This document shows, one piece after another, positions 3,742-59,425 of a stretch of DNA of 64,000 nt. The position numbers and the translations under genes were made by a program. Source of the DNA: a bacterium (GTDB taxonomy: Bacteria > Patescibacteriota > CPR2 > UBA1875 > JAJYID01). The DNA is taken from assembly GCA_021790235.1 (NCBI GenBank), contig JAJYID010000001.1:107228-171227 (forward strand), read 5' to 3'. Under the pieces are notes generated by a model. That model ran no database searches, was not told the DNA's origin, and saw nothing but the letters and a program-made list of their open reading frames with translations. Within the stretch, counting starts at the first letter, position 1. Every line of letters starts with the position of its first letter.

Positions 3742-3817
3742 TATTGATTTATATATTCTTCTATACAAGAGTTTTTTAATTTTGCTACAATGGTAAGCCA
3801 ATAAGCAGGAGATATCT

Positions 3818-3946
3818 ATGCCTGAACTTCCCGAAGTTGGTACTCCTCACTGTCATTTCGTGCCCCGACACGGAAACCATAACAATAAGATTCCCGATCG
3901 GGTCGGGAATGACATAAAAGAAAATGCCAGAATTGCCAGAAGTTGA
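3818..3946 (+). other. 42-codon upstream ORF beginning with a second copy of the mutM start (MPELPEV), preceded by a strong SD (aggag)
   Basis: 'atgcctgaacttcccgaagttg' at 3818 versus 'atgccagaattgccagaagttg' at 3924. The uORF reads through the inserted repeat and stops at TGA 3944-3946, out of frame with mutM. Confidence 0.35.
3851..3914. repeat. Full-length miniature hairpin repeat element (64 bp) with TIR tgtcatt/aatgaca and two internal hairpins
   Basis: Sequence is tgtcatttcgtgccccgacacggaaacc...attcccgatcgggtcgggaatgaca. The stems are ttcgtg/cacggaa and attcccga/tcgggaat. Confidence 0.7.
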
Positions 3947-4808
3947 GACTGTCAAAAATGATTTAAAATCAAAAATTACCGGAACGAAAATAGTGTCGGT
4001 TAACGCTCTATGGCCTGGCATTGTCAAAGACACCCCATACAAGGTTTTTGTAAAACAGGTAGAGGGAGCTGAAATTATAAAGGTTAAAAGACGGGCTAAA
4101 AATCTGATTATTTCTCTTTCGAATGGCCTAAATTTGCTGGTTCATCTCAAGATGACCGGACACTTTTTGATTGCTGAATCCTCGGCTGAAATTTCTAAGG
4201 AAGGTAAATGGTTAAAAGCCAAGAATACAGATCTACTAAATGACCGGCAAAACCAATTTATTCGTATTATCTTTTATTTGGACAACGGCATGATTTTAGC
4301 GATGAGCGATATGAGAAAGTTCGCTTACATTAAACTTGTTGGTGATAAGGAGTTACAAACATTCCTTTCTTCTTATGGGCCAGAGCCGTTCAGTCCGGAG
4401 TTTACAGAGGAGAGACTAAAGAAAATTTTACGAGCAAAAAACATCGTTGTAAAAAAAGTTCTGATGGATCAGTCGAAAATTGCCGGTATTGGCAATATTT
4501 ATGCCGATGAAATTCTCTGGGCAGCGCGGGTTCATCCGCTATCAGTCTCTTATAAATTATCTGATCAAGATGTCAAAGCAATTTATCAAAATATCAAGAA
4601 AATATTAAAATTGGCCATAGAAAAACGCGGTACGTCAACCTCAGACTTTCGCGATACGAGCGGACGAAAGGGCACATTTGGTGATCTAAGAAATGTTTAT
4701 AGAAGGACTGATCTTCCTTGCCCTGAATGCGGTGGGTCGGTTAAAAAAATAACGGTAGGCGGTCGAGGCACTCATTTCTGTCCTGTTTGCCAAAAAGAGG
4801 TGAAATGA
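3924..4808 (+). CDS. mutM: Formamidopyrimidine-DNA glycosylase
   Basis: N-terminal MPELPEVETV (catalytic Pro2) and a C-terminal zinc finger CPECGG...HFCPVCQ. Confidence 0.9.
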   Translation: MPELPEVETVKNDLKSKITGTKIVSVNALWPGIVKDTPYKVFVKQVEGAEIIKVKRRAKNLIISLSNGLNLLVHLKMTGHFLIAESSAEISKEGKWLKAKNTDLLNDRQNQFIRIIFYLDNGMILAMSDMRKFAYIKLVGDKELQTFLSSYGPEPFSPEFTEERLKKILRAKNIVVKKVLMDQSKIAGIGNIYADEILWAARVHPLSVSYKLSDQDVKAIYQNIKKILKLAIEKRGTSTSDFRDTSGRKGTFGDLRNVYRRTDLPCPECGGSVKKITVGGRGTHFCPVCQKEVK

Positions 4809-5725
4809 TTTACTTTTTCTTCGGAGAAGACACTTACCGACTCAAGAAAACTATTGAAGCCTTTGCTGGCAAGTTCGGAGATGATTCGCTCATGAATGTT
4901 TCGGTTTTTGAGGATGATTATGATCTCAAAAAAATAAGTTCGGCTATGCTTTCACTGCCATTTCTAAGTAAGAAAAGGCTGGTGATAATGAAAAACATAT
5001 TCTCGGCGAAAAACTTAGATGCGAAGAAATTGGCTGAAATTTTAGATAGTGCACCGGATTCTACAGTTATGCTTTTTATCCAGGAGGGGCAGCCAGACAA
5101 GCGTTCTGTTCTCTTTAAGCGATTGATAAAAGAAAAATCCAAAGAACTCGGGTTTTTAAGCGGTGCTGAACTGGCTAAATGGATCAAGGCGGAAGTGCAA
5201 AAGGCGGGCGGTGAGATTGGGCCTAAAGAAGCGCTTCTTTTGGCCGAGTATTTTGGCGGAAATCTCTGGCAGCTGAAAAATGAGGTTTCCAAGCTAGTCG
5301 CTTATGACAAAAATATCAAGCTTGAAAATATCGAAAAGCTTTCAGTTTCTAATGTAAATGTCAAAATATTTGATCTCACTGATACGATTACGGCTGGTAA
5401 TAAAGAAAAATCGTTTAAAATCTTAAAGGACCTTCTCGACTCCGGAGAAAATGAGCTTTATATTCTTTCAATGATTCAGTGGCAGGTTCGCAATCTGGCT
5501 CTTGTTTATGGTTTTAAAAATGCAAGCGAGACGGAAATTGCAAAAAAAACAAAATTGAACCCGTTTATAGTCAGAAAATCACTGGTTGCAGCCAAAAAAA
5601 TCAGTTCAGATGGTACCATAAAAAATTATTATAGCCAAATCATTGAAGCTGAAAACGACATTAAAACCGGCGCCAAAGAGCCGGATGTGGCTCTGGAGCT
5701 TTTAGTAAATCAGTTAACAGATTAA
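4805..5725 (+). CDS. holA: DNA polymerase III subunit delta
   Basis: ATGA overlap with the mutM stop and an SD (aaagagg). The N-terminus MIYFFFGEDTYRLKK and the length are typical of HolA. Confidence 0.75.
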   Translation: MIYFFFGEDTYRLKKTIEAFAGKFGDDSLMNVSVFEDDYDLKKISSAMLSLPFLSKKRLVIMKNIFSAKNLDAKKLAEILDSAPDSTVMLFIQEGQPDKRSVLFKRLIKEKSKELGFLSGAELAKWIKAEVQKAGGEIGPKEALLLAEYFGGNLWQLKNEVSKLVAYDKNIKLENIEKLSVSNVNVKIFDLTDTITAGNKEKSFKILKDLLDSGENELYILSMIQWQVRNLALVYGFKNASETEIAKKTKLNPFIVRKSLVAAKKISSDGTIKNYYSQIIEAENDIKTGAKEPDVALELLVNQLTD

Positions 5726-26398: not shown

Positions 26399-27211
26399 GT
26401 GAAGAAGAGAATCGATGTGCTTTTAACTGAAAAAGGGTTCGCTGAAAGCCGTGCTAAGGCGCAGGCTTTTTTGCTGTTAGGGCAAGTCTATGTTGATGCC
26501 AAAAAAGTTGATAAAGCTGGAACTTTGATTGAGGATAACGCTAGTCTTGAATTGAGGGAAAGATTTCCCTATGTTTCCAGAGGCGCTTTAAAAATTCAGA
26601 AGGCTTACGAGGAATTTGGACTGGATTTTAATGAAAAAGTTATTTGTGACATCGGTGCGTCAACCGGAGGATTTACGGACTTTGTGCTGCAACATGGTGC
26701 AAAGAAAGTGTATGCGATTGATGTTGGTTATGGGCAACTTGAGCAGAAATTACGTGAGAACAGTAGGGTGCATGTTATGGAAAGAACTAATTTCCGTGAG
26801 ATAGATTCATGGGACGATTTTTCTAAACGCGTCATCCTGGCCCGTCCAGGATCAAAAAAGTATAAAAACGAGTCAAATTTTGGTCAAACCAGAATGACAG
26901 TTGAGCGAATTAATTTCTTCGTTTGTGACGTTTCGTTTATTTCCCTCAAAAAAATAATTCCTCAGATTAAAAAAATTGTAGATTACCCGATTGAGTGTGT
27001 TTTGCTCATTAAACCGCAATTCGAAGTTGGCAAGGAAATCGCTGACAAAACCAAAGGCGTGATTAAAAACGAGGAAATTCAGAGGTCAGTGGTCGAAGAT
27101 ATTGCGGAGTTCAGCGAGGAGCAAAGGTTTCATGTTGAAGGCATTACCGATTCGCCGATTACTGGTGCCAAAGGGAATAAAGAATTTTTAATCTACTTAA
27201 GTTATAATTAA
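26399..27211 (+). CDS. tlyA: TlyA family rRNA 2'-O-methyltransferase, carrying an in-frame repeat-derived insertion
   Basis: An S4 domain followed by the SAM motif DIGASTGGFTD and then DVSFISL. Confidence 0.85.
   Translation: MKKRIDVLLTEKGFAESRAKAQAFLLLGQVYVDAKKVDKAGTLIEDNASLELRERFPYVSRGALKIQKAYEEFGLDFNEKVICDIGASTGGFTDFVLQHGAKKVYAIDVGYGQLEQKLRENSRVHVMERTNFREIDSWDDFSKRVILARPGSKKYKNESNFGQTRMTVERINFFVCDVSFISLKKIIPQIKKIVDYPIECVLLIKPQFEVGKEIADKTKGVIKNEEIQRSVVEDIAEFSEEQRFHVEGITDSPITGAKGNKEFLIYLSYN
26830..26900. repeat. Full-length hairpin repeat element inside the tlyA coding sequence
   Basis: cgtcatcctggcccgtccaggatc...ggtcaaaccagaatgacag. The TIR is gtcatcctgg/ccagaatgac (9 of 10). It encodes approximately SKRVILARPGSKKYKNESNFGQTRMTV. 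Confidence 0.6.
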
Positions 27212-28934: not shown

Positions 28935-30617
28935 GTGATAGCAGTGAAGAAACTATTCATAATAGTCATTGTCGCACTTGTTGTGGTGATGACACTGGCT
29001 GTCTTTGTCTCGCCGGCAATGGCGGCTTGTGACCTAAATGTCACAAGCTTCGGAATGTCAAGCAATTCAGGACAGGCGGGTGCGGCCTTCGATGTGTACG
29101 GAACATACACGGGAACGGCTGCCCCAACCGGCGACATCCTGTATGTGTTGCCGTCTGATCAGACGGATGTAATTGGGACGTTCAGTGCGACTGGAGGAAA
29201 TATCTCTGGCACAGCGACGATTCCATTAGATGCGACTGAGGGGGGACACCTAATTGACTATGTTCTACCCTTTAGTGATGCAACGTGTGGTGTGTATGGA
29301 CCAATACCTATTAGTACTTACACAGTTGTTGGCGGACCAGTGGCCAGAGATTATTACTGGACGTGGTATGACCAGCAGTCGCGGAATATGACTGACTGGG
29401 TTCTTATGGGCAATCCATCTACCACTAGTACCCTTAGTTTTAGTCTTAATATCGCTGGTAACGCTCAGATTGTTGGTGACCTTGGATATGGAGAAGGTAA
29501 GGTAGGACCACAAGAGACCTTAACTTCGACATATCCGGGAGTTATGGGCGGTCCGGTGAAAGTATCTTCATTAACTGGTGAGAAAGGTTTCGTAAGCCAA
29601 CGAGTACTGTTTGGTAACTCCTTTGAGGAGATACCAGGTATCGAAGAATCCCAGCTTTCTGGGCATTACTATTGGGCCTGGTACGACCAGCAATCTCCCG
29701 GCATGCTTAATTGGGTCCTAGTAGCCAACCCCAGTACCTCAGACGATGTCTACTATCAGATCAAGATTGCCGGCGACGTCAAGGATACCGGCAAGCTTGT
29801 CCCTGGGGATAAAGTTACACCAACCTTCCCGGGCGTCCTAGGCGGACCTGTCGAGGTTACTAGCTGTTCGGCAGCTTTTGACCAGTACGGGAATTGTTCG
29901 GGGACTAATCCCAAAGTCATCGCTTCCCAGCGGGTGCTGTCTAACTATGGTACTGCCTTCAATGAAGTACCTGGCATTCCGGCGAATGAACTTTCCGGAG
30001 ATTATCTCTGGACATGGTATGACAACCAAAGCCCAGGCGCTACTGATTGGGTCCTAGTAGCCAACCCCAGTACCTCAGACGATGTCTACTATCAGATCAA
30101 GATTGCCGGCGACGTCAAGGATACCGGCAAGCTTGTCCCTGGGGATAAAGTTACACCAACCTTCCCGGGCGTCCTAGGCGGACCTGTCGAGGTTACTAGC
30201 TGTTCGGCAGCTTTTGACCAGTACGGGAATTGTTCGGGGACTAATCCCAAAGTCATCGCTTCCCAGCGTAGTATCTGGGGTCCATCCTTTGAGGAGGTGC
30301 CGGGTATGTCGATCGGAAGCCTGTCTTGGGATTATGGTTGGACTTGGTATGACCAAAAGAGTCCTGGTTCTACTAACTGGATTTTGGTGGCCAATCCTGG
30401 TGATACACCTGTAGATTACCAGATTATAATTGGTGGTCAAGTCATGCCGACCAGTCTGGTGAATCCTGGGACGATCTCTGCTCATGGCAGGGTGACCCCC
30501 ACATTTCCAGGCGTGATGGGTGGCCCAGTTGAGATCGTAGCTGATGGTAAGGTGATTGCATCTCAACGAGTGCTCTGGAATGGATACTTTAATGAGGTAT
30601 TAGGGAGACAGTATTAA
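28935..30617 (+). CDS. Secreted protein with four ~105-112-aa modules of an unassigned repeat (W-x-W-Y-D...NPS...PGVxGGPV...ASQR)
   Basis: The signal peptide ends AMA. There is an N-terminal Ig-like region, then four modules starting YYWTWYDQQS, YYWAWYDQQS, YLWTWYDNQS and YGWTWYDQKS. Confidence 0.7.
   Translation: MIAVKKLFIIVIVALVVVMTLAVFVSPAMAACDLNVTSFGMSSNSGQAGAAFDVYGTYTGTAAPTGDILYVLPSDQTDVIGTFSATGGNISGTATIPLDATEGGHLIDYVLPFSDATCGVYGPIPISTYTVVGGPVARDYYWTWYDQQSRNMTDWVLMGNPSTTSTLSFSLNIAGNAQIVGDLGYGEGKVGPQETLTSTYPGVMGGPVKVSSLTGEKGFVSQRVLFGNSFEEIPGIEESQLSGHYYWAWYDQQSPGMLNWVLVANPSTSDDVYYQIKIAGDVKDTGKLVPGDKVTPTFPGVLGGPVEVTSCSAAFDQYGNCSGTNPKVIASQRVLSNYGTAFNEVPGIPANELSGDYLWTWYDNQSPGATDWVLVANPSTSDDVYYQIKIAGDVKDTGKLVPGDKVTPTFPGVLGGPVEVTSCSAAFDQYGNCSGTNPKVIASQRSIWGPSFEEVPGMSIGSLSWDYGWTWYDQKSPGSTNWILVANPGDTPVDYQIIIGGQVMPTSLVNPGTISAHGRVTPTFPGVMGGPVEIVADGKVIASQRVLWNGYFNEVLGRQY
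29710..30268 (+). repeat. Perfect 223-bp direct repeat (29710-29932 = 30046-30268, 336-bp period) inside the secreted-protein gene
   Basis: Base-by-base comparison of the two segments shows no mismatch. Confidence 0.9.
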
Positions 30618-35866: not shown

Positions 35867-37642
35867 ATGGCAGTTGGTAACGATAATAAATTAGAAGATC
35901 TACTAGTCAAGCTGGGTTTGATTACACAAAAACAGCTTGATCTTGTTAAGGTTGAAAGCGCAGAATCAGGAAAACCGATTACAGAGATTCTAGGTAACAT
36001 GCCTGATATCTCAAAAGAAGCTTTGACAAAGGCGATAGCTGTGACTTTGGAGCTTCCTTATGTTGACCTTTCTGCAAAAAAAATTGATAAAAATATTCTT
36101 GATATCATCAATGGAGATCTAGCCGGAAAGTACAAACTTATTCCCTTTGGTAAGGTTGGCGATTTTCTAAATGTAGCTATGGTTGATCCTAACAATATCA
36201 TGGCCATCGAATATATTGAGAAAAAAACAGGTCTTAAGCTGAAGCCCTACCTTGCATCTCAAGAAAGCATTGAAAAAGCTTTAAAACAATATGACGATGA
36301 TTACTCAGTAGAAGTTCAGAATGTGATTGGAACCCTTGAAAAACCGCCAGAAATTAATCTTAAGGAAGATAAGGGAAAGCAAGGAGAAGCTGCCGTTATT
36401 ACCCAAGATGCTCCGATTACCAGAGCTTTAAACACTATCCTAGAATATGCAGCCAAATCCAGGGCTTCCGATGTTCATATTGAGCCAAGAGAGAAATTGA
36501 TAAAAGTTAGATATCGTATAGATGGTATTTTGTATAATACCATGACTCTGCCGAAACATATCCATCCTGCTCTCGTGTCCAGGATTAAGATACTCTCAAA
36601 CCTTAAAATCGATGAACATCGTATTCCTCAGGATGGGCGTTTTCAGCTAAATCAGGATGGACGAGAAATAGATCTTCGTATTTCTATTACCCCGATAGTT
36701 TATGGTGAAAAAGTGGTAATACGTCTTTTAGATAAATCTACAGGTATTATTACGCTTGATAATCTCGGGATAAAGGGACGAGCTTTTAGAATTATAGAGG
36801 AAGGGACTAAAAAACCTCATGGTATGATTTTGGCAACCGGTCCGACCGGGTCCGGTAAGTCCACCTCGCTGTATGCGATTTTGTCAGAGATTAATAAACC
36901 TAGTGTCAATATTATCACAGTTGAAGATCCAGTAGAATATAACATCGACGGTATTAACCAGATCCAGGTAAATAATGCCGTCGGACTGACTTTTTCTTCA
37001 GGTTTACGTTCAATCTTGCGTCAAGACCCCGATGTAATTATGGTTGGAGAGATACGCGACAAGGAAACAGCTGAACTAGCCGTTCAGTCGGCTCTGACGG
37101 GGCATACCGTCCTTTCTACCCTTCATACGAACTCTGCCGCCGGTGCTTTACCTCGTCTCTTAGAGATGGAAATCGAACCATTTTTAATCGCTTCCACCGT
37201 CAATACTGTTATAGCGCAGCGTCTGGTTCGTAAAATATGTGATCATTGCAAAGAAGAATATCAGGCGAGTCCAGCTTTAACTCAGGCAATTAAAAAGTCA
37301 CTAAAAGATGTCTTGCCGTCGAAGAAAGATCCCTCTTCAAAAACTAGAGAACTTGGTTTCGATAAATTACCGAATACTGAAAATGAGGTATTTACACTTT
37401 ATAAAGGTAAAGGTTGTGATCAGTGTAAAAATACAGGTTACTGGGGTAGGACAGGAGTTTATGAGATTTTTAGCATTAATGAAAAGATGGAGAATCTTAT
37501 CACGACAGAAGCTACTTCGAGCGATATTCAAGATCAGGCGATAAAAGATGGAATGATCACTATGCGTCAAGACGGTTTTTTAAAAGCTCTGGCAGGTATT
37601 ACCACATTGGAGGAGGTGGTAAGAACTACGACTGAAGACTAG
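35867..37642 (+). CDS. pilB: Type IV pilus assembly ATPase PilB (GspE family)
   Basis: T2SSE N-domain, Walker A GPTGSGKST, and a tetracysteine motif CDHC...CDQC. Confidence 0.92.
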   Translation: MAVGNDNKLEDLLVKLGLITQKQLDLVKVESAESGKPITEILGNMPDISKEALTKAIAVTLELPYVDLSAKKIDKNILDIINGDLAGKYKLIPFGKVGDFLNVAMVDPNNIMAIEYIEKKTGLKLKPYLASQESIEKALKQYDDDYSVEVQNVIGTLEKPPEINLKEDKGKQGEAAVITQDAPITRALNTILEYAAKSRASDVHIEPREKLIKVRYRIDGILYNTMTLPKHIHPALVSRIKILSNLKIDEHRIPQDGRFQLNQDGREIDLRISITPIVYGEKVVIRLLDKSTGIITLDNLGIKGRAFRIIEEGTKKPHGMILATGPTGSGKSTSLYAILSEINKPSVNIITVEDPVEYNIDGINQIQVNNAVGLTFSSGLRSILRQDPDVIMVGEIRDKETAELAVQSALTGHTVLSTLHTNSAAGALPRLLEMEIEPFLIASTVNTVIAQRLVRKICDHCKEEYQASPALTQAIKKSLKDVLPSKKDPSSKTRELGFDKLPNTENEVFTLYKGKGCDQCKNTGYWGRTGVYEIFSINEKMENLITTEATSSDIQDQAIKDGMITMRQDGFLKALAGITTLEEVVRTTTED

Positions 37643-37723
37643 AAATATTACTTTTTAATTATAAGTCTTTAAATTTTAAACTGATAGTATTAGAATAAGA
37701 ATTATAGAAGGAGGGCTGGGAAG

Positions 37724-38797
37724 ATGCCGGAAACAACTAAACTAAAAATTGAAAATTTTCTAGAAGAGGTTATAAAACGTGATGCCAGTGATCTTCATTT
37801 AACGGTTGGTGTACCTCCTATGCTCCGAGTAGATGGTTCGCTGCAACCTATTGAAGATGCCAAAGGGCTTACTGACAAAGATGTTAAAGAATTGACTTAT
37901 TCCATTTTAGATGATGTTCAAAAAGATATTTTAGAAAGGGATAAAGAAGTAGACTTTTCGTTCACATATGGGGATCTCGCCAGATTTAGGGCAAATGCTT
38001 ATCACCAAAAAGGTAACGTCGGTTTAGCACTTCGTCTCATTCCGGTTAATATCAGAAGTCTATCACAGCTAGGTATGCCTCAGATAGTTGAAAAATTTAC
38101 AGATTTTTCTCGCGGCTTGGTACTTGTAACCGGTCCGACCGGGTCCGGTAAATCCACTACCTTAGCAGCCATGATTGATAAAATCAACTCAGAACGCGCA
38201 TGCCATATCATTACAGTTGAGGATCCGATCGAATATACTCATTCGCATAAAAAATCTCTAGTTGAACAGCGAGAAGTGCATTATGATACTCGTTCATTTG
38301 CGGCTGCACTCCGCAGTGTTCTCCGTGAAGATCCGGATGTTGTTTTAATCGGTGAAATGAGAGATTTGGAGACTATTGCCGCGGCTATTACTATTGCCGA
38401 AACAGGTCATCTGGTCTTGGCTACTTTGCATACAAACAGCGCTGCCCAGTCAGTTGACAGGATTATTGACGTCTTTCCACCCCATCAGCAACAACAGATC
38501 AGAGTGCAGCTTTCTAATATTTTACAAAGTATAGTTTCTCAAAGATTAATTCCTGCTATCGGAGGTGGAAGATTGGCGGCTGCGGAGATTTTGGTAGTGA
38601 ATGCTGCGGTTAGAAATATCATTAGAGAACAGAAGACACATCAGATAGAAGCAGTGATTCAGACCGGTTCTTCAGAAGGTATGCAATCTATGGATAGAAC
38701 TCTGGCAAACTTGATTAAAACTGGACGTATTACTCTGGAAGAGGCAAAGGGCTATGCAATCGATATCAAAGAGCTTGAACGTCTCTTACATGGATAA
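37724..38797 (+). CDS. pilT: Type IV pilus retraction ATPase PilT
   Basis: ASDLHLTVG, GPTGSGKSTT, and HLVLATLHTNSA. Confidence 0.92.
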   Translation: MPETTKLKIENFLEEVIKRDASDLHLTVGVPPMLRVDGSLQPIEDAKGLTDKDVKELTYSILDDVQKDILERDKEVDFSFTYGDLARFRANAYHQKGNVGLALRLIPVNIRSLSQLGMPQIVEKFTDFSRGLVLVTGPTGSGKSTTLAAMIDKINSERACHIITVEDPIEYTHSHKKSLVEQREVHYDTRSFAAALRSVLREDPDVVLIGEMRDLETIAAAITIAETGHLVLATLHTNSAAQSVDRIIDVFPPHQQQQIRVQLSNILQSIVSQRLIPAIGGGRLAAAEILVVNAAVRNIIREQKTHQIEAVIQTGSSEGMQSMDRTLANLIKTGRITLEEAKGYAIDIKELERLLHG

Positions 38798-38842
38798 AAA
38801 TTAGCCGTAAAAACAATCCCTACAAACACTTAACGGAGTAAA

Positions 38843-40051
38843 ATGAAAGAATTTACATATAAAGCGAGAAATAAAGACGGGACGGCCACTCAAGGCATAG
38901 TAGAAGCGGAAACCGAGGTGGCAGCTTCAAATCTTCTGATTTCCAAAAACATTTTTCCGGTTGATATAAAAGAAGGTACCAAAACCTCCTTTGAAATACC
39001 TTTTTTAAAAAAGGTATCCAGAAAAGATAAAGTCTTCTTTCTGAGACAGTTGGCAACCATGACGGGTGCCGGTCTGCCTATAGCTCAAGCCCTTTCAACA
39101 CTATTGGCTCAAACCTCAAAGAAAAATGTTAAGAAAATGATTGAGCAAATGAGCCGTGACATTGAAGCCGGCGGTACGCTTTCTGCTGCTTTCGCCGCTT
39201 TTCCTGATGTGTTTAATAAAACCGATACCAATATGATAGCTTCGGGTGAAGCTAGTGGTAAAGTAGATGAGGTACTCTTGCACATGGCAAATCAGACAGA
39301 AAAGAGCTATCAAACTTTGAAAAAAATTAGAACCGTTTTTATTTACCCGGCCTTCCTAGCAGTCGTTGTGTCGGGTGTGGTGGGAATCTTAATAACATTT
39401 GTTTTGCCGCAAATGAAAAATCTCTACTCAGGGTTTGGAGCCAATCTGCCTTTGCCGACTAGAATTTTAATCGGGACTAGCGACTTTCTTGCCAAATATT
39501 TCATATTAGTGGTTATACTTGTCATTGCTATTTATATCTCACTTAGGATATATATTAAGACAAATGAAACAGGCAAGTATTTCTGGCACAGACTAAAGAC
39601 AAGTATACCGATAATCTCTAGCTTTATCCGTCTTTCTTATCTTTCTATTATTACGAGAACCTTGGCCAGCTTGGTGGCTTCAGGCGTACCTATTCTTGAT
39701 TCGCTGGATATAGTGTCAGAGGCTATGCAAAATGTCATATATCGCGATAGCTTAAAAACGGTTCGAGACAAGGTCAAACAAGGTAAGTCTTTATCTGCAG
39801 CTTTTAAGGAAGATGAGGTATTCCCAATATTGGTTTCCCAAATGATGGGAGTTGGTGAGCAAACGGGAGAGCTTGATAATATGCTTTCAAATATGGCAGA
39901 GTATTATGACAACGAGCTAGATAGCATGACCAAAAATCTGCAGTCTCTTCTGGAACCGGTTATGATAGTGATAATGGGAGGGATAGTCGGGACTATTATT
40001 ATTTGTATCTTGCTTCCGGTATATAGTCTTCAGAATTTTGTAGTCCACTAA
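38843..40051 (+). CDS. pilC: Type IV pilus platform protein PilC (GspF family)
   Basis: Two T2SSF repeats and three transmembrane regions. Confidence 0.9.
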   Translation: MKEFTYKARNKDGTATQGIVEAETEVAASNLLISKNIFPVDIKEGTKTSFEIPFLKKVSRKDKVFFLRQLATMTGAGLPIAQALSTLLAQTSKKNVKKMIEQMSRDIEAGGTLSAAFAAFPDVFNKTDTNMIASGEASGKVDEVLLHMANQTEKSYQTLKKIRTVFIYPAFLAVVVSGVVGILITFVLPQMKNLYSGFGANLPLPTRILIGTSDFLAKYFILVVILVIAIYISLRIYIKTNETGKYFWHRLKTSIPIISSFIRLSYLSIITRTLASLVASGVPILDSLDIVSEAMQNVIYRDSLKTVRDKVKQGKSLSAAFKEDEVFPILVSQMMGVGEQTGELDNMLSNMAEYYDNELDSMTKNLQSLLEPVMIVIMGGIVGTIIICILLPVYSLQNFVVH

Positions 40052-40150
40052 TTTGTTCATGCGATAGGCATAAATGAAATAATATAGTTGACACATCATA
40101 AGGACATTGGTTCAATATCAACATAAAAGAAAAAAGAAAGGAGGTGGAAT

Positions 40151-40591
40151 ATGAGAAATCTAAGAAAAAAGTTTACTCTGGGAGAAGCGAAGGGTTTTAC
40201 ACTTATTGAGTTAGTCGTAGTTATGGCTATTATCGCTGTTTTAGCGGTGCTGGTTATAGGTGCTATCACCATAGCCCGTCAAACTGCAATGGAGACTGCA
40301 GACAGATCAAACGTCAGAACATTGCAAACCTGTCTCGAAGCAGATTACACGAAATTTAAGGCTTATTGTGGTGCGACGGGTCAAACTGCATGTCCTACTT
40401 TGCCTACTACTGGTAGTGTAATGTTTACTGCTATGGCTGCTGATATAGGAAGTTGTAAACCAGCTACTGGGACTTCAGGTGATGGTGCCTCTGATGGAGT
40501 AACAGTGACTGCCTGGTCTAAGAATAGTTATACTATTCAAGCACTATCTCATGATAACTCAACTACTATAGATAGTCCTGTTTCTCCTTAG
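40151..40591 (+). CDS. Type IV pilin (paralog 1)
   Basis: Class III signal KG/FTLIELVVVMAIIAVLA. SD aaaggagg. Confidence 0.85.
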   Translation: MRNLRKKFTLGEAKGFTLIELVVVMAIIAVLAVLVIGAITIARQTAMETADRSNVRTLQTCLEADYTKFKAYCGATGQTACPTLPTTGSVMFTAMAADIGSCKPATGTSGDGASDGVTVTAWSKNSYTIQALSHDNSTTIDSPVSP

Positions 40592-40669
40592 ATAATTTGA
40601 TCGGGATATCTTTCATAACTAGCCATGGCGAGACGGCTCCTCATGGCTGTTATGGGAAATATTAAACAA

Positions 40670-41113
40670 ATGGAAGAGGGAGTGAAAAAGCTAAAAAAAA
40701 ATCAAGGTTTTACACTCATTGAGTTAGTCGTAGTTATGGCTATTATCGCTGTTTTAGCGGTGCTGGTTATAGGTGCTATCACGGTTGCTAGAAACACTGC
40801 TGCAGAAACTACAAATCGATCGAATGCTCGGACATTTCAAGCAGGTTTGGAAAAATATTTTTCTAATAATAAAAGTTATCCTGCCTACGTTGTTACCGGT
40901 GGTTTAGCCTCATTTGATACTTTGTACAACGATAATCTTAGAGATTTAGGCATTACGCATGCGGATTATCCCAGTGGCTGTGACACTACTGGTCAAGCAC
41001 ACGGTGGAGGCCAATATAGTTATAATTCTTCTACTGGTCAGTATACTCTTACGGTTTGGAACTATGATTGTACAAAAGTTTTATCCGGATCAAGCAATCA
41101 GTTTACCAACTAA
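40670..41113 (+). CDS. Type IV pilin (paralog 2)
   Basis: QG/FTLIELVVVMAIIAVLA. The ORF is open from 40625, but the start is chosen nearer the signal (MEEGVKKLKKNQG). Confidence 0.8.
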   Translation: MEEGVKKLKKNQGFTLIELVVVMAIIAVLAVLVIGAITVARNTAAETTNRSNARTFQAGLEKYFSNNKSYPAYVVTGGLASFDTLYNDNLRDLGITHADYPSGCDTTGQAHGGGQYSYNSSTGQYTLTVWNYDCTKVLSGSSNQFTN

Positions 41114-41127
41114 GATGATTAACAGTA

Positions 41128-41706
41128 ATGTTTTTGTATAAGAGAAAAAATATTTTCGGAAAATTAGAAGGTTTTACACTTATTGAGTTAGTCGTAGTTA
41201 TGGCTATTATTGCTCTTCTTGCCGCTTTAATCATAGGAGCCATCGCTATAACGCGCCAACAAGCCGATGTTACGAGGCTACGATCTGATGCTCATAATAT
41301 TCAGACAGCTTTAGAGGGATACTTTGCAAAGAACAGACATTTCCCTCCTGATTATCGAGTAGATGCCTACTCGCTTTATGCAGATACTTCTGCTTATTAT
41401 ACTGATGGCAAAACTTATGCAAACCAAGATGGAGCGCATCCTTTAAGTACTATGGGGGCATCATCTTGGCCCACTCCCCCGGCAAACAACGGCAGCAAGG
41501 GGCTGATATGTTACTCAGCCGGTCTCAACGCACAGGATTATTGGTTTTGGATCTTGACTCCGGGCGAGGTGCAAGCCGGTAAAGTGTGTATTGCCCCGAG
41601 TTGCACGAACTCTACTTGTGGATTTATAGCTGCAGATCCTGGCAGTAAGATTCATTGTCCGAATGGCACGACCTCGAGCGGTTGTTCATCTCAGTATTGG
41701 TATTAG
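41128..41706 (+). CDS. Type IV pilin (paralog 3, larger C-terminal domain with several Cys)
   Basis: EG/FTLIELVVVMAIIALLA. Confidence 0.8.
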   Translation: MFLYKRKNIFGKLEGFTLIELVVVMAIIALLAALIIGAIAITRQQADVTRLRSDAHNIQTALEGYFAKNRHFPPDYRVDAYSLYADTSAYYTDGKTYANQDGAHPLSTMGASSWPTPPANNGSKGLICYSAGLNAQDYWFWILTPGEVQAGKVCIAPSCTNSTCGFIAADPGSKIHCPNGTTSSGCSSQYWY

Positions 41707-41770
41707 AAAATTTGTTCTCTGTGTAAGACTGGAGGATAAGGCTGGGGACGGTTCTCTTTTTAAAGCAGAT

Positions 41771-41799
41771 TTGACGGAAACTTTCAAATTTTCTATAAT
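41771..41799 (+). promoter_or_regulatory. Sigma70-like promoter (TTGACG-17-TATAAT) of the transposase gene, 6 nt before the ATG (leaderless)
   Basis: ttgacg at 41771-41776, a 17-nt spacer, tataat at 41794-41799, and the ATG at 41806. Confidence 0.7.
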
Positions 41800-41805
41800 T
41801 TGTTT

Positions 41806-42489
41806 ATGCCCAGACAAGCTAGAATATTGCCACCGAACGGTTTTTATCATATCGTCTGCCGCGGAAACAACAAACAGAATATATTTCGGGATGATTCAGA
41901 TAAGGACAAATATCTTGAGTTGGCTTTAAGATACAAGGGAGAGCATCCCATGTCTCTATTCCATTATTGTTTAATGACTAATCATGTTCATTTGCTTCTT
42001 GAAACGAATGAACAAACTGATCTTTCAAACTTTATGAAAAGGCTTAATCTTGCCTATTTTCATCATTTTAAAAATAAATATGGTTATGTTGGCCATTTCT
42101 GGCAGGACAGATTCAAAAGCTTCTTAATCGAGCGGGATAACTATCTTTTGGTTTGTGGAAAGTATATCGAGCTGAACCCGGTAAGGGCTAAAATGGTGGC
42201 GAGACCTGAAGACTTTGAATACTCGAGTTATGGGTTTTATACTGATAACAAGAAGAGTGATATTTTAGAACACAACCCTCTGTTTTTTGAACTGAGCTCC
42301 AAGTCCAAGGATTGTTCTAGTCTGTACCGTGACTTTGTTGTGCCTCAAGAAGAGATAGAACAGAGGTTTAAGGGTCCCTTCTGGGGTAGTGAGAAATTTG
42401 TTACTAGAATGAGAAAGAGGCTTGACTATAAAAAGGCCGCTGTTCAAGCAGGTAGAAAGGTTAATTTTCGGAAAATCAAAGCGCAATAG
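41806..42489 (+). CDS. REP-associated tyrosine transposase-like / IS200-family Y1 (HUH) transposase
   Basis: FYHIVCRGNN, HUH motif TNHVHLLL, and the catalytic Tyr region YIELNPVRAKM. Confidence 0.8.
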   Translation: MPRQARILPPNGFYHIVCRGNNKQNIFRDDSDKDKYLELALRYKGEHPMSLFHYCLMTNHVHLLLETNEQTDLSNFMKRLNLAYFHHFKNKYGYVGHFWQDRFKSFLIERDNYLLVCGKYIELNPVRAKMVARPEDFEYSSYGFYTDNKKSDILEHNPLFFELSSKSKDCSSLYRDFVVPQEEIEQRFKGPFWGSEKFVTRMRKRLDYKKAAVQAGRKVNFRKIKAQ

Positions 42490-42555
42490 AGAACCGTCCC
42501 CTAAGTGGGGGATAATGTTCTTTTGTATTACTAGGTTGCTGAGTATAATATATTT

Positions 42556-43362
42556 ATGTTTATTTTCTTGATTTTGTTTTTTGTTTTTGGTCTGATCATT
42601 GGCAGTTTTTTGAATGTTCTGATATATAGATTAGAAAACAAAAAACGTAAAACTCTGTGGGGCAGGTCTTTTTGTCCTCATTGTGAGAAGCGAATTGAAT
42701 GGTATGATAATATTCCGGTTGTGTCCTTTCTGTTTTTGGGCGGCAAGTGCCGGCATTGCAAAAAGAAAATTTCCATTCAATACCCGCTGGTGGAGCTGAC
42801 AACAGGATTTTTGTTCGCACTGCTTTTTGTAATCCCGAACGGGGCAATGGCGGAGTTGGGGAATCCCTTTGCTTACATTAATTTAATCTTCTGGTTTTTC
42901 TTTGCCTCGTGTTTGATGGTTGTTTTTGTTTACGACTTAAAACATCAAATCATTCCGGACCAGGTAATTTATACTGCACTTATTACCGGCTTCCTCTATG
43001 TGTCAATGCAATTTGCTTTACTAGGAGACTTTAAATATTTAGCTGATCATCTGTCATCTGCATTGATTGCCGGAGGTTTTTTCTATATTTTAGCAGCCAT
43101 ATCAAACGGCAAATGGATGGGAGGAGGTGATATTAAACTGGTATCCTTCATGGGCTTAGTACTTGGATGGCAGGGTACTGTTATTTCTCTATATGTTGCT
43201 TTTGTTTTAGGTGCTATCATGGGCGTGATTTTGCTGATATCAAAGAAAAAAAAATTTGGTTCAAAGATCCCCTTTGGCCCTTTTCTAATCATAGGAAATT
43301 TTATAGGCCTTTTTTTTGGGGAGCAACTCATTAACTTTTATGTTAAAATGTTTTTAAGTTAA
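42556..43362 (+). CDS. pilD: Prepilin peptidase (A24 family) PilD
   Basis: Zinc-binding CPHC...CRHC, multiple transmembrane segments, and the catalytic region GGGDIKL. Confidence 0.9.
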   Translation: MFIFLILFFVFGLIIGSFLNVLIYRLENKKRKTLWGRSFCPHCEKRIEWYDNIPVVSFLFLGGKCRHCKKKISIQYPLVELTTGFLFALLFVIPNGAMAELGNPFAYINLIFWFFFASCLMVVFVYDLKHQIIPDQVIYTALITGFLYVSMQFALLGDFKYLADHLSSALIAGGFFYILAAISNGKWMGGGDIKLVSFMGLVLGWQGTVISLYVAFVLGAIMGVILLISKKKKFGSKIPFGPFLIIGNFIGLFFGEQLINFYVKMFLS

Positions 43363-43374
43363 CTGGATATTCTT

Positions 43375-44058
43375 ATGATGTGGAGGGTTAAAAATAATAA
43401 AGGATTTACACTGGTTGAGCTCATAGTGGTTATGTCAATAACCGGTATTTTGCTTGCGCTTATTTATGGCGGATATTCCAGTACCAGAAAAGGCCAGTAT
43501 GTTCAGTATATGGCGAATCTTACCCAGACTAATATCCGAAGCTCCTTTATAGATATTATCTCTACAAAAGTGGAAACAGCAGGTAACTGTAATGGTTTAT
43601 CGCCTGTGATAAAAGTTGTGGCAATAAAGTTAGGTTCATCTTCCACACCTATCACTGAGGTTCCTATTTGTAATGATAATAGTGGCGTACTGCAGGATCC
43701 GACTACGAATATTGAAACTATTGATCCGTCAGAGAGCTTAAATTTTCAGGAGAATTTAAGTATGGACTTTTGTACTCCTTATGCGACCAACTACTCTTGC
43801 ACTAATCCGACTAAAACAGGTTATCTTTATCTAATTTTTACAAGTCCATACGGAAAATATTACAGTTACTATAGTGGTTCAGATCAAATAACAGATTTAT
43901 GGACCTATCAAATTAGTAACTGGCAGCATAACGCAGATATGATTTATACGCCATCTAGTGACCCAAGTATAGGTTATATAACTCTTCATTTAACTGATGA
44001 TACCGGTAATACGTCAGAACTTAATATTACAGGTGTTGGTAATGTCGAAAAGCCATGA
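43375..44058 (+). CDS. Minor pilin / pseudopilin
   Basis: KG/FTLVELIVVMSITGILLA prepilin signal. Confidence 0.75.
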   Translation: MMWRVKNNKGFTLVELIVVMSITGILLALIYGGYSSTRKGQYVQYMANLTQTNIRSSFIDIISTKVETAGNCNGLSPVIKVVAIKLGSSSTPITEVPICNDNSGVLQDPTTNIETIDPSESLNFQENLSMDFCTPYATNYSCTNPTKTGYLYLIFTSPYGKYYSYYSGSDQITDLWTYQISNWQHNADMIYTPSSDPSIGYITLHLTDDTGNTSELNITGVGNVEKP

Positions 44059-44630: not shown

Positions 44631-44633
44631 GAA

Positions 44634-58501: not shown

Positions 58502-58954
58502 ATGAAAATATTATCTAAAAGCTCTAATGAAACGATTAAACTAGGTGAAGAAGTTGGCAAAAAGCTCTCCGGTGGAGAGATCTTTGCGCTTTACGGCGAT
58601 CTTGGCGGCGGGAAAACCCAGTTTACCAAAGGCATTGCTCTAGGCCTTGGCATCTCCGATCATATTCTTTCCCCGACATTCACCATTCGCCGCGAATATG
58701 AAGGTAAGAGACTGCATTTGCTGCATTACGATTTCTACCGATTTGAAGCTCCAGATCGGGAGCTAATTGAAAGTATGAAAGAAGGTATTGATCTTGATAA
58801 TGTGACGGCGATAGAATGGGCGGAGCGAGTGGAGAAACATTTGCCGAAAGACACGATTCAAGTCAGTTTTAAATACATTTCGGAAAACGAACGGGAAATA
58901 GAGATAGAAAATTATAATCCAGAACGTCATTCTGAGGAACGACGAATCTTATGA
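58502..58954 (+). CDS. tsaE: tRNA t6A biosynthesis ATPase TsaE
   Basis: GDLGGGKTQFTKG P-loop. The last approximately 10 codons (ERHSEERRIL) are encoded by a repeat unit. Confidence 0.85.
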   Translation: MKILSKSSNETIKLGEEVGKKLSGGEIFALYGDLGGGKTQFTKGIALGLGISDHILSPTFTIRREYEGKRLHLLHYDFYRFEAPDRELIESMKEGIDLDNVTAIEWAERVEKHLPKDTIQVSFKYISENEREIEIENYNPERHSEERRIL

Positions 58955-58993
58955 GATCTTTCCTTGTCCTTTCGGGAAGTCGTTCAAGATGAT
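58925..58993. repeat. Two inverted hairpin repeat units (58925-58948 on +, 58955-58993 on -)
   Basis: cgtcattctgaggaacgacgaatc on the + strand, and the reverse complement atcatcttgaacgacttcccgaaaggacaaggaaagatc. Confidence 0.65.
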
Positions 58994-59007
58994 AGAAAGA
59001 AAAGATT

Positions 59008-59289
59008 GTGTCATATTACGTCTACATTTTAGCAAATAGAAATAACAAAGTGCTTTATACGGGTATGACTAATAATCTCGAAAGAAGAATTTTCGAACAC
59101 AAAAATAAATTGATTAGGGGTTTTACCGAAAAATATAATTTGAATAAATTAGTATATTTTGAGGAATTTCCTACACCAAAAGAGGCCATAGAAAGTGAAA
59201 AAATGATTAAGGGATGGATTAGAAAAAAGAAAATTAAACTGATAGAATCAAAAAATATAAACTGGGATGATTTATCATTGTCATTCTGA
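59008..59289 (+). CDS. GIY-YIG nuclease family protein (UPF0213/YhbQ-like)
   Basis: YYVYILANRNNKVLYTGMTNNLERRIFEHK (GIY...YTG...R..EH), with a GTG start. Confidence 0.85.
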   Translation: MSYYVYILANRNNKVLYTGMTNNLERRIFEHKNKLIRGFTEKYNLNKLVYFEEFPTPKEAIESEKMIKGWIRKKKIKLIESKNINWDDLSLSF

Positions 59290-59411
59290 CGAAGGAAGAA
59301 TCTTTTTTGAGATCCTTCGTCGTTCCTCCTCAGGATGACAACTAAAGTATTAAGGATGACAATAATCAAAGACAATGTAACTAAGCCGGTCATTCTGAGG
59401 AACGAATAATC
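59279..59411. repeat. Cluster of hairpin repeat units (59279-59302 on +, 59311-59340 on -, 59388-59411 on +)
   Basis: tgtcattctgacgaaggaagaatc; the reverse complement tgtcatcctgaggaggaacgacgaaggatc; and ggtcattctgaggaacgaataatc. Confidence 0.7.
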
Positions 59412-59425
59412 TCATAAGAAAAATT

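What the first reader, a model, noticed from the sequence alone, without database searches (positions are those of the whole stretch)
3818..3946. mutM start codon region is duplicated, with a complete repeat element between the two copies
'atgcctgaacttcccgaagttg' (3818) and 'atgccagaattgccagaagttg' (3924) both encode MPELPEV, the essential Fpg N-terminus with catalytic Pro2. Within those seven codons they differ only at three codons (cct/cca, ctt/ttg, ccc/cca), all synonymous. The 83 nt between them contains a full 64-bp hairpin element (3851-3914). The upstream copy has the strong SD (aggag, 6 nt spacing) while the real mutM ATG has a poor one (aaaag). The upstream copy opens a 42-codon ORF that reads through the element and stops at 3944-3946, 20 nt inside mutM and out of frame by 1. 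Three explanations are possible. The element may have inserted into the 5' end with the start later regenerated. The uORF may drive translational coupling or regulation of mutM. Or an excision or bypass event across the 106-nt direct-repeat interval may restore the ancestral start. All three are inference.
Basis: partly seen in the sequence, partly recalled or inferred. Interest (0 to 1): 0.6.

Follow-up and report, generated by a model that had tools for sequence, protein, structure and literature searches.

The report
Hairpin element insertion duplicated mutM's start
An 84-bp mobile hairpin pair, of the kind recognised by Ssn single-strand DNA nucleases, landed inside the first codons of the DNA-repair gene mutM, and the gene survived because its first 22 bases are repeated on the far side of the insert, giving a rare before-and-after view of how these widespread repeats move.

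Summary
ATGCCTGAACTTCCCGAAGTTG (3818-3839) and ATGCCAGAATTGCCAGAAGTTG (3924-3945) both encode MPELPEV and differ at four bases, all synonymous. A palindromic element lies between them. A relative (L001, MutM 85% identical) has the empty site: the same promoter/SD context, one start matching the upstream copy, and exactly 106 nt less. So the upstream copy is ancestral. The insert is a symmetric 84-nt unit (3840-3923) of two inverted hairpins plus the 22-nt repeat.

The hairpins belong to the published NTS/SRM class, the ssDNA targets of GIY-YIG Ssn nucleases (Chenal et al. 2025). An ssn-like gene flanked by such hairpins lies at 58926-59417. The right arm occurs exactly in more than 120 metagenome contigs. 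Among doublets with that arm, two more show the same pattern: a duplicated tsaE start and a duplicated uppS 3' end.

mutM must now start at 3924. The old start opens an out-of-frame 42-codon uORF. How the repeat arose (long target duplication or short import from another allele) is unresolved. Bypass, excision, assembly artefact and an element-borne gene end are unsupported. This is a new variant of a known kind and moderately interesting.

The parts
3762..3791 (+). Promoter-like site (TATACA-18-TACAAT) upstream of the ancestral start
   Evidence: The -10 region and the SD context are conserved in L001.
3807..3811 (+). Ancestral Shine-Dalgarno AGGAG, 6 nt before the upstream ATG
   Evidence: Sequence. 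The same 'gccaataagcaggaga' context directly precedes the single mutM start in L001.
3818..3839 (+). Upstream (ancestral) copy of the first 22 nt of mutM, now a relic
   Evidence: 21/22 identical to L001's only start, or 20/21 over the seven codons.
3818..3946 (+). 42-codon uORF opened by the relic start. It reads through the insert and stops 20 nt inside mutM, in the +1 frame.
   Evidence: The peptide has no relative among 5.8 billion proteins except itself.
3840..3923 (.). Inserted 84-nt unit: an 11-nt pyrimidine-rich flank, a forward hairpin, an 11-nt spacer, a reverse hairpin and a 10-nt purine-rich flank
   Evidence: Absent from L001. The symmetric layout follows. The left edge resembles 'acctctccGTCATT' of L088 and L082.
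3851..3877 (+). Left arm: a degenerate NTS/SRM-like hairpin, TGTCATTTCGTGCCCCGACACGGAAAC
   Evidence: The predicted ssDNA hairpin is weak (-3.2 kcal/mol, z -0.5, folded as 3851-3879).
3889..3913 (-). Right arm: NTS/SRM-like hairpin (minus strand GTCATTCCCGACCCGATCGGGAATC)
   Evidence: The exact 25-mer occurs in more than 120 metagenome contigs. The ssDNA hairpin is -7.6 kcal/mol, z -3.4, with 0 of 200 shuffles as stable.
3924..3945 (+). Downstream copy of the first 22 nt. It is the present mutM start, preceded by AAGAAA.
   Evidence: It is 17/21 identical to L001 over the seven codons, whereas codons 8-30 are 64/69 identical.
3924..4808 (+). mutM (fpg), intact, 294 aa, starting MPELPEV
58926..59417 (+). 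ssn-like unit between tsaE and tsaB: hairpin doublet, 93-aa single-domain GIY-YIG ORF (59008..59289), hairpin doublet, half hairpin
   Evidence: Pfam GIY-YIG E=3.9e-18. The flanking genes are TsaE and TsaB/D-like.
26831..26898 (+). Another hairpin doublet of the same class, translated in frame inside tlyA (…VILARPGSKKYKNESNFGQTRMT…)

Best explanation
An 84-bp gene-less pair of inverted hairpins inserted after nucleotide 22 of mutM in this lineage. The hairpins are of the NTS/SRM class, the single-stranded-DNA recognition sites of small GIY-YIG Ssn nucleases. The first 22 nt of the gene now flank the insert as a direct repeat.

Shown: (1) the upstream copy, with the old promoter and Shine-Dalgarno, is the ancestral start; (2) it now opens a 42-codon out-of-frame ORF; (3) the downstream copy rebuilds Met-Pro-Glu-Leu-Pro-Glu-Val in frame with the untouched rest of the gene.

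From established enzymology: Fpg uses the N-terminal proline, exposed after Met removal, as its catalytic nucleophile. Only initiation at 3924 can therefore give active enzyme, and the duplication is what made the insertion tolerable.

Inferred: the repeat derives from the target and arose during insertion, as an unusually long target duplication from repair of widely staggered breaks or from a double template switch. The downstream copy then changed at synonymous sites in its new context. A short-patch import of 'element plus start' from another mutM allele is the main alternative for this step.

Inferred: mutM is now translated from an SD-less, A-rich leader (AAGAAA-ATG), as are about half the genes here. 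Ribosomes on the uORF may help by melting the hairpins and terminating 20 nt past the new ATG.
For: - Empty site. L001 has the same upstream context, one start and exactly 106 nt less. L083 and L084-87 are also single-copy. None of 80 other mutM loci has two MPELPEV.
- Polarity. The upstream copy is 21/22 identical to L001. The downstream copy is 17/21 over the seven codons.
- Element identity. The arms have the GTCAT-box, palindrome and trailing C of NTS (CGTCATTCCCGCGMAVGCGGGAATCYRG).
- Distribution. The right arm is found exactly in more than 120 metagenome contigs, commonly paired with canonical NTS hairpins or next to GIY-YIG genes.
- Partner genes. L088 shows hairpin-GIY-YIG-hairpin right before mutM. 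The window has its own such unit.
- Recurrence. L106 has a 38-nt repeat of the tsaE start, L127 a 34-nt repeat of the uppS 3' end including the stop, and L186 a 19-nt repeat, all abutting the same kind of doublet. Three of 34 doublets exceed the null 99th percentile, against 0.3 expected.
- The repeated segment always matches the adjacent gene, so it comes from the target and is not carried by the element.
- mutM is intact and scores above the fpg equivalog cut-off.
- SD-less starts are normal in this genome.
- There is no plus-strand terminator in the insert.
Against: - No transposition chemistry is known for these elements. Ssn is only a nuclease, and mobility is only a hypothesis in the literature.
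- The insert's edges lie 11 nt and 10 nt outside the hairpins. Neisseria SsnA cuts about 3 nt outside them.
- Most doublets show no long flanking repeat.
- Simple neutral drift after a perfect duplication fits poorly, by a rough post-hoc estimate of about 1% rates. The relic copy is almost unchanged while the functional copy has four changes.
- The structural rationale for those changes is modest. Opening energy is 12.3 kcal/mol for a perfect duplicate against 9.3 for the actual copy, and the actual copy is only average among synonymous variants.
- Both arms fail the published strict SRM search pattern, the right arm at one stem position.
- Use of the 3924 start and any uORF coupling are untested.
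Confidence: 0.8

Rival explanations
1. Import from another allele. A relative carried the hairpin doublet just upstream of its own mutM start. Its DNA entered by natural transformation and was cut by Ssn at the outer edge of the doublet. It was then integrated with one homologous end (the start of mutM) and one illegitimate end 22 nt inside the resident gene. This would leave the resident start as a relic and the donor's start as the new one.
For: - Ssn cuts incoming ssDNA just upstream of the hairpin and affects integration.
- Hairpins or whole ssn units directly upstream of mutM exist in relatives (L082, L088).
- The window encodes type IV pilus genes (prepilin-like repeats D3 and ATPase repeat D5).
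- The two copies differ only synonymously in the window.
- In L127 the conserved QRRFGR-stop block differs only synonymously between the copies (sequences), as two once-functional orthologous ends would.
- The relic copy is essentially unchanged, as expected for a recent event.
Against: - Codons 8-30, immediately after the new start, are 93% identical to L001 and far closer to it than to any other lineage. Any imported tract would therefore be only about 100 nt, with a homologous anchor of about 20 nt or less.
- No allele with the doublet upstream of a single 'cca gaa ttg cca' start was found. The uORF peptide is unique, and 87 mutM loci were checked.
- The junction is 11 nt from the hairpin, not about 3 nt.
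Confidence: 0.3
2. The arrangement is a selected regulatory device. The uORF and hairpins control mutM translation, either by termination-reinitiation coupling or by hairpin occlusion of the start. Repair capacity, and hence mutation rate, would be tunable.
For: - The relic start keeps its promoter, SD and ATG.
- The uORF stop lies 20 nt downstream of the mutM ATG.
- The predicted mRNA structure pairs the two copies around the hairpins (MFE -40.4 kcal/mol, z -2.8).
- The relic is conserved: 21/22 to L001, 20/21 over the seven codons.
Against: - The arrangement is found in one strain only.
- In the parallel tsaE case the relic ORF ends inside the element, far from the new ATG.
- Conservation of the relic is equally explained by a recent insertion.
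- There are no expression data.
Confidence: 0.15
3. The ancestral start is still the functional one. The 106 nt would be removed either by ribosomal bypass from GTT (3836) to GTT (3942) or by precise DNA deletion between the 22-nt repeats.
For: - Matching codons and direct repeats flank a hairpin-forming segment.
- The relic copy still encodes MPELPEV.
Against: - There is no stop codon after the putative take-off codon and no hairpin at the take-off site.
- The 106-nt gap is about twice that of any known bypass (own knowledge of T4 gene 60 and yeast mitochondrial byps).
- The downstream copy has a complete ATG-Pro start of its own.
- The repeats are only 82% identical, which disfavours slippage.
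- All assemblies carry the filled allele.
Confidence: 0.03
4. Assembly artefact: two strain variants of the mutM start were stitched around a repeat.
For: The source is a metagenome-assembled genome.
Against: - The same sequence appears in an independent Logan assembly of SRR13170411 and in records from three sources.
- The insert has an orderly, symmetric structure.
- The same architecture is seen in unrelated contigs (L106, L127).
Confidence: 0.02

Closest known systems
NTS/SRM hairpin repeats and Ssn GIY-YIG ssDNA nucleases (Chenal et al. 2025, Nat Commun 16:2388, PMC11893778). NTS includes the Neisseria dRS3 repeat ATTCCC-N8-GGGAAT.
   Same: The arms have a GTCAT box, an ATTCCC…GGGAAT-type palindrome and a trailing C. 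They are predicted to form ssDNA hairpins. A roughly 94-aa single-domain GIY-YIG gene is flanked by such hairpins, both in the window and in L088. The repeats have a wide phylogenetic spread.
   Different: Here a gene-less inverted doublet is caught as a discrete 84-bp insertion, with an empty site in a relative and a 22-nt flanking repeat. The paper only hypothesises mobility and reports no target duplication. Both arms fail the paper's strict SRM search pattern, the right arm at one stem position. The host is a Patescibacteria-type genome, whereas the paper found most homologs in Pseudomonadati.
Neisserial intergenic mosaic elements (dRS3-flanked RS units)
   Same: Short units bounded by inverted dRS3-type hairpins, clustered near genes.
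   Different: NIMEs are described as intergenic arrays and recombination substrates. They are not described as single insertions inside a coding start with duplication of the gene end.
Rickettsia palindromic elements (own knowledge: Ogata et al. 2000)
   Same: Palindromic repeats are tolerated inside protein-coding genes and translated in frame. The tlyA and holA copies in this clade behave this way.
   Different: The mutM copy is not read as part of the protein. The gene is rescued by a duplicated start, because Fpg cannot tolerate any N-terminal extension.
REP/REPIN doublets with RAYT transposases, and IS200/IS605 (own knowledge; also compared in PMC11893778)
   Same: Inverted pairs of short hairpins, a small dedicated ssDNA-acting enzyme gene flanked by the same hairpins, and non-autonomous doublets far outnumbering the gene.
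   Different: The enzyme fold differs (GIY-YIG nuclease rather than HUH tyrosine transposase). Those systems insert without long target duplications.
Integrating elements that carry a substitute gene end, such as phage 21 and e14 in E. coli icd (own knowledge)
   Same: After insertion the target gene is completed by a second copy of its end that differs mostly at synonymous sites, and a relic copy is left on the other side.
   Different: In those systems the substitute end is part of a large element with an integrase and is always the same gene. Here the same hairpin type is flanked by repeats of three different genes (mutM, tsaE, uppS), so the repeat comes from the target.

Membership tests
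NTS/SRM (Ssn-related motif) hairpin repeats | Oriented motif: GTCAT(T/C) box, palindromic stem of ATTCCC…GGGAAT type, conserved C after the palindrome | tested here: met
   The right arm on the minus strand is TGTCATTCCCGA-CCCGA-TCGGGAATC. The left arm TGTCATTTCGTG-CCCCGA-CACGGAAAC is a degenerate version with a bulge.
NTS/SRM (Ssn-related motif) hairpin repeats | Match to the published degenerate SRM search pattern HGTCWYN(0-2)YYVSBRHN(0-5)WNVSBRGN(0-2)RNCYNB | tested here: not met
   There are 0 matches in the whole window. By hand, the right arm fails at one stem position (CCCGA where the pattern requires B). The pattern was derived manually from 29 genomes.
NTS/SRM (Ssn-related motif) hairpin repeats | Spatial association with a small single-domain GIY-YIG (ssn) gene, often flanking it on both sides | tested here: met
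   The window's 93-aa GIY-YIG ORF (59008..59289) is flanked by hairpin doublets. L088 has hairpin-GIY-YIG-hairpin. The exact right arm follows a GIY-YIG ORF in L119/L190.
NTS/SRM (Ssn-related motif) hairpin repeats | Forms a hairpin as single-stranded DNA | tested here: inconclusive
   The right arm gives -7.6 kcal/mol, z -3.4. The left arm gives -3.2 kcal/mol, z -0.5. These are predictions only.
NTS/SRM (Ssn-related motif) hairpin repeats | Bound as ssDNA and cleaved a few nt upstream by the cognate Ssn | not testable with these tools
   This needs purified protein and oligonucleotides. The Neisseria enzyme cuts about 3 nt upstream, whereas the insert edges are 10-11 nt out.
Ssn nuclease family (CDD cd10448) | Single GIY-YIG domain of about 94 aa with no extra DNA-binding domain | tested here: met
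   Pfam GIY-YIG covers residues 3-76 of 93, E=3.9e-18. The nearest solved structures are the UPF0213 proteins 1zg2 and 1ywl.
Ssn nuclease family (CDD cd10448) | Assignment to cd10448 / clade with Neisseria SsnA | not testable with these tools
Classical MITE / cut-and-paste transposon | Short target-site duplication of fixed length | tested here: not met
   The flanking repeats are 22, 38, about 34 and 19 nt, and all are imperfect. Most copies have none detectable.
Classical MITE / cut-and-paste transposon | Many near-identical copies in the host genome | tested here: not met
   There is no copy within 3 mismatches of either arm elsewhere in the 64-kb window. The rest of the genome was not available.
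Programmed translational bypass (T4 gene 60 type) | Matched take-off and landing codons, a stop codon right after take-off, a hairpin at the take-off site, and a gap of about 50 nt | tested here: not met
   The GTT/GTT codons match only because of the repeat. The next codons are GGT ACT CCT with no stop, the hairpin starts 13 nt downstream, and the gap is 106 nt.
Fpg/MutM | Full-length match to the fpg equivalog, with Pro directly after the initiator Met | tested here: met
   TIGR00577 scores 265.5 bits against a 203.3 cut-off. The ORF from 3924 begins MPELPEV, as do all relatives.
Element-borne substitute gene end (icd/e14 type) | The same gene fragment travels with the element to every insertion | tested here: not met
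   The same right arm is flanked by repeats of mutM, tsaE and uppS in different contigs. Bases beyond +2 after the arm are not conserved.

The most novel reading that the evidence does not exclude
Gene-less SRM/NTS hairpin doublets are true mobile elements whose insertion can create long (about 20-40 nt), variable and imperfect duplications of the target. This would let them colonise the extreme 5' or 3' ends of indispensable genes without killing them ('self-healing' insertions). It would be an insertion mode unlike any characterised transposon family, possibly driven by Ssn cleavage of ssDNA at replication forks or during transformation.
Probability: 0.35. Interest if true: 0.7.

Novelty: new variant of a known kind. 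Interest (0 to 1): 0.55.

Why it matters
Ssn nucleases and their hairpin repeats were described only in 2025. Whether the repeats move, and how, is an open question. This locus offers a clean filled-versus-empty pair for a gene-less hairpin doublet, with defined edges and a long flanking repeat. Two parallel cases at other genes give the question a concrete, testable shape: does the cognate Ssn cut at the insert's edges, and are fresh insertions born with perfect repeats?

The locus also shows how a gene with an absolute N-terminal requirement (Fpg's catalytic Pro2) can survive an insertion in its first codons.

It also has a practical side for annotation. These elements create spurious uORFs, false N-terminal extensions (P0013) and translated insertions in tlyA and holA of Patescibacteria genomes.

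Tried and rejected
- **Near-identical copies in the window:** none within 3 mismatches of either arm.
- **Rfam:** nothing at the gathering threshold and only noise at E≤10.
- **uORF peptide:** no homologue anywhere, so it is not a conserved small protein.
- **Published SRM regex:** 0 hits in the window. It is too strict for these variants.
- **mutM start as an insertion hotspot:** rejected. Five of 71 loci have a hairpin within -200..+30, against about 4.7 expected from the overall density.
- **'AAGAAAATG' as part of the element:** rejected. Only the two bases after the arm are conserved, as purines.
- **Long foreign tract downstream of the new start:** rejected by sliding identity.
- **Neutral drift after a perfect duplication:** disfavoured at about 1%, by rough post-hoc arithmetic rates and one search counts.
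- **Selection against RNA structure as the reason for the synonymous changes:** only weak support.
- **Long flanking repeats as a universal property of these elements:** not supported, although doublets show a slight general excess.
- **Precise boundaries at two other sites:** the holA hairpin in L001 and the tlyA doublet are too diverged for nucleotide-level empty-site analysis.

Full report
**1. The observation**

The window reads …gccaataagcAGGAGatatctATGCCTGAACTTCCCGAAGTTG (3818-3839). It continues with gtactcctcacTGTCATTTCGTGCCCCGACACGGAAACcataacaataaGATTCCCGATCGGGTCGGGAATGACataaaagaaa (3840-3923). Then comes ATGCCAGAATTGCCAGAAGTTGAGACT…, which opens a 294-codon ORF (3924..4808).

The two 22-mers differ at four bases, all synonymous. 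The upstream ATG opens a 42-codon ORF (3818..3946) in the +1 frame relative to mutM. The long ORF is a bona fide fpg: TIGR00577 scores 265.5 bits against a cut-off of 203.3. All its relatives begin MPELPEV.

An independent Logan assembly (L081, run SRR13170411) is identical across the region. Rfam finds nothing here.

**2. An empty site shows which copy is ancestral**

The closest relative in a one-genome-per-species collection is L001 (MAG DBS2-1.bin86, MutM 85% identical). It has the same upstream gene, the same 'gccaataagcaggaga' SD context and a single start, ATGCCTGAACTTCCGGAAGTTGAGACT. The pairwise alignment has one gap of exactly 106 nt.

Two more relatives are also single-copy: L083 (79%) and L084-87 (72%). 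None of 80 mutM loci from other species has two MPELPEV.

The upstream copy is 21/22 identical to L001. The downstream copy is 17/21 over the seven codons. The window lineage therefore gained 106 nt: an 84-nt foreign segment plus a second copy of the first 22 nt.

**3. What the inserted segment is**

The insert has no near-identical copy in the window. Several loci share its architecture of a GTCAT(T/C) box, a stem, GAATC, a spacer and a mirror image.

- Two such doublets bracket a 93-aa ORF (59008..59289) lying between tsaE and tsaB. The ORF is a single GIY-YIG domain.
- In relative L088 the same arrangement lies 17 nt before the mutM ATG: acctctccGTCATTCCCGCGCAGGCGGGAATC, a GIY-YIG ORF, then GATTCCCGCCTGCGCGGGAATGAC.
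- L082 has a solo hairpin with the same 'acctctccGTCATT' left edge. That hairpin had been mis-called as an N-terminal extension of MutM in P0013.

A text search for GTCATTCCCGCG led to Chenal et al. 2025 (PMC11893778). Their findings are as follows.

- The Neisseria NTS repeat is CGTCATTCCCGCGMAVGCGGGAATCYRG and contains dRS3.
- Its wider 'Ssn-related motifs' (SRM) are bound as single-stranded DNA by SsnA, a 94-aa single-domain GIY-YIG nuclease.
- SsnA cuts a few nucleotides upstream of the hairpin.
- SsnA cuts incoming transforming ssDNA and lowers its integration.

The window's right arm (minus strand TGTCATTCCCGACCCGATCGGGAATC) fits this description. The left arm is a degenerate version. 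Both arms fail the paper's strict hand-made search pattern, the right arm at one stem position, so I call them NTS/SRM-like.

**4. How widespread the arm is, and where the unit ends**

The contigs checked have GC contents from 41% to 51%.

Of 109 unique copies, 35 are '→ ←' doublets with a forward hairpin at most 45 nt upstream. That partner is often the canonical GTCATTCCCGCGAAAGCGGGAATC, with compensatory stem variants.

After the arm, position +1 is a purine in 95% of copies and position +2 in 81%. Beyond that there is only purine richness. Upstream of forward hairpins the flank is pyrimidine-rich.

The 84-nt insert is therefore a symmetric unit: an 11-nt Y-rich flank, a hairpin, an 11-nt spacer, an inverted hairpin and a 10-nt R-rich flank. 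The 'ATG…' that follows is not part of the element.

**5. The duplication recurs with this element type**

I aligned the left and right flanks of all copies.

| Locus | Repeat | What is duplicated |
|---|---|---|
| L106 | 38 nt, 4 differences | ATGAAAATACTCTCAAAAAGTTCAGGAGAAACGGTTGA / ATGAAAATATTATCAAAAAATTCAGGAGAAACAGTTGA. The right copy is the start of tsaE (Pfam TsaE), 6 nt (AAGAAA) after the arm. |
| L127 | about 34 nt | The last codons and stop of uppS (Prenyltransf). The upstream copy is the functional end. The conserved QRRFGR-stop block differs only synonymously between the copies. |
| L186 | 19 nt | Not at a recognised gene. |

Among 34 doublets with this arm, 3 exceed the 99th percentile of a shifted-flank null, against about 0.3 expected. 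The remainder are slightly shifted (Mann-Whitney p=0.01). Single arms are not shifted.

In a wider scan of 476 hairpin units, only the window, L106 and L127 have long repeats abutting both ends.

Long imperfect flanking repeats are thus a real but minority feature. The repeated segment always matches the adjacent gene, so it comes from the target and is not cargo of the element. mutM starts are not a hotspot: 5 of 71 loci have a hairpin nearby, against 4.7 expected.

**6. How the repeat arose (unresolved)**

Window and L001 differ at 48% of four-fold sites, so four synonymous changes are not remarkable in themselves. The 5' end of mutM, however, is unusually conserved between the two:

- Codons 8-30 are 64/69 identical, against a gene average of 79%.
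- Those codons are much closer to L001 than to any other lineage.
- The relic copy is 20/21 identical to L001.
- Only the new copy is off, at 17/21, and it is equally distant from all lineages.

Three readings remain.

(a) A perfect target duplication at insertion was followed by accelerated synonymous change of the new start in its new context, with no SD and hairpins upstream. A perfect duplicate would need 12.3 kcal/mol to open, which is in the top 8% of synonymous variants. The actual copy needs 9.3, which is merely average.

(b) A short patch (element plus start) was imported from another allele that had the doublet upstream of its ATG. This fits Ssn's known action on transforming ssDNA. 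It would require an anchor of about 20 nt or less, because the sequence downstream is native. No such donor allele was found.

(c) The insertion is old and the relic is under constraint.

Plain neutral drift after a perfect duplication fits poorly. A rough post-hoc calculation rates gives about 1%. I lean to (a), with (b) close behind.

The insert's edges (11 nt and 10 nt outside the hairpins here, and 9 and 6 or 10 and 8 nt in L106 and L127) are near the roughly 3-nt cut distance of the Neisseria enzyme but not at it.

**7. How mutM is expressed now (inference)**

Fpg's nucleophile is the N-terminal proline (established enzymology). Only the 3924 start can therefore yield active enzyme.

The promoter-like site (3762-3791) and the SD feed the relic ATG. 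The insert has no plus-strand terminator, so mutM is probably on the same transcript.

Its start lacks an SD, but so do about half of the window's genes. The same AAGAAA-ATG context precedes the duplicated tsaE start in L106.

Ribosomes on the uORF would unwind the hairpins and stop 20 nt past the ATG, so termination-reinitiation is possible. In L106 the relic ORF stops inside the element, so coupling is not a general requirement.

Bypass or excision to reuse the old start lacks every defining feature and has no supporting data.

**8. Verdict**

The finding is a genuine and well-defined insertion of a known but recently described repeat class, caught with its empty site. The gene-saving duplication of the target recurs at other genes. 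The element class is known. Its mobility, its discrete 84-bp unit and its long imperfect flanking repeats have not been reported in the literature I could search.

Noticed in passing
window 26831-26898 (inside tlyA, 26399..27211): A hairpin doublet of the same class is translated in frame as …VILARPGSKKYKNESNFGQTRMT…. The same insertion is present in the L001 genome's TlyA and several relatives but absent from others. Other clade members carry further translated doublets at two more sites (…CHSRPPSVIPAEAGI…DPRVKPEDD…, and C-terminal SCHSELDSES). TlyA lengths range from 237 to 343 aa.
   Followed up: partly
window 58926-59417: A 93-aa single-domain GIY-YIG (ssn-like) ORF flanked by hairpin doublets is inserted between tsaE and tsaB. 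A half hairpin ends about 12 nt before the tsaB ATG, in the context 'CATAAGAAAAATTATG'.
   Followed up: partly
L001 4680-4730 (holA) versus window 5590-5620: A reciprocal case. L001's holA carries an in-frame canonical NTS (cgctctctctGTCATTCCCGCGAAGGCGGGAATCCAG, read as LCHSREGGNPD) that the window lacks. The flanks are too diverged to define edges or any duplication.
   Followed up: partly
L082 522-638 (protein P0013): The database protein P0013 (333 aa) has a false 39-aa N-terminal extension (…SFPRPASPSLGGRRES…), which is a translated hairpin upstream of the true MPELPEV start. This is an annotation artefact that these repeats cause.
   Followed up: yes
L089-L208 (metagenome contigs): The 25-mer GATTCCCGATCGGGTCGGGAATGAC is conserved base for base in more than 120 contigs from many environments (GC 41-51% in the contigs checked), while its partner hairpin varies with compensatory stem changes and a frequent GAAA loop. 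This implies strong constraint and/or horizontal spread.
   Followed up: partly
window, many gene starts (e.g. 2399, 12522, 17252, 22962, 42556): Many genes start 5-9 nt after a TATAAT-like box with no SD, which suggests frequent leaderless or very short-leader mRNAs in this genome.
   Followed up: no
window 3924-4013 versus L001 3001-3090: The first 30 codons of mutM are about 90% identical at the nucleotide level between the window and L001, against 79% for the whole gene and about 48% difference at four-fold sites. The L001 start contains a perfect 14-nt palindrome, AACTTCCGGAAGTT. This suggests nucleotide-level constraint on the 5' end.
   Followed up: partly
window 35867-45260; repeats D2 (40193-41323), D3 (43393-44687), D5 (36816/38109): This looks like a type IV pilus/competence-like gene cluster, with paralogous ATPases and several prepilin-like genes sharing N-terminal 'KGFTLVEL' motifs. 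It is relevant because Ssn acts on transforming ssDNA. The gene identities were not checked.
   Followed up: no
window 29655-30268: A 278-nt direct repeat (92% identical, 336-nt spacing) lies inside the ORF 28935..30617, an internal protein repeat of unknown nature.
   Followed up: no
L133 (around the arm) and L092: Tandem arrays in which arm-type hairpins alternate with about 45-nt units (ATCTGTCATTCTGAAGATAATGCAAGAGTGACGCCTGTATAACAGA…), reminiscent of Neisseria NIME arrays.
   Followed up: no
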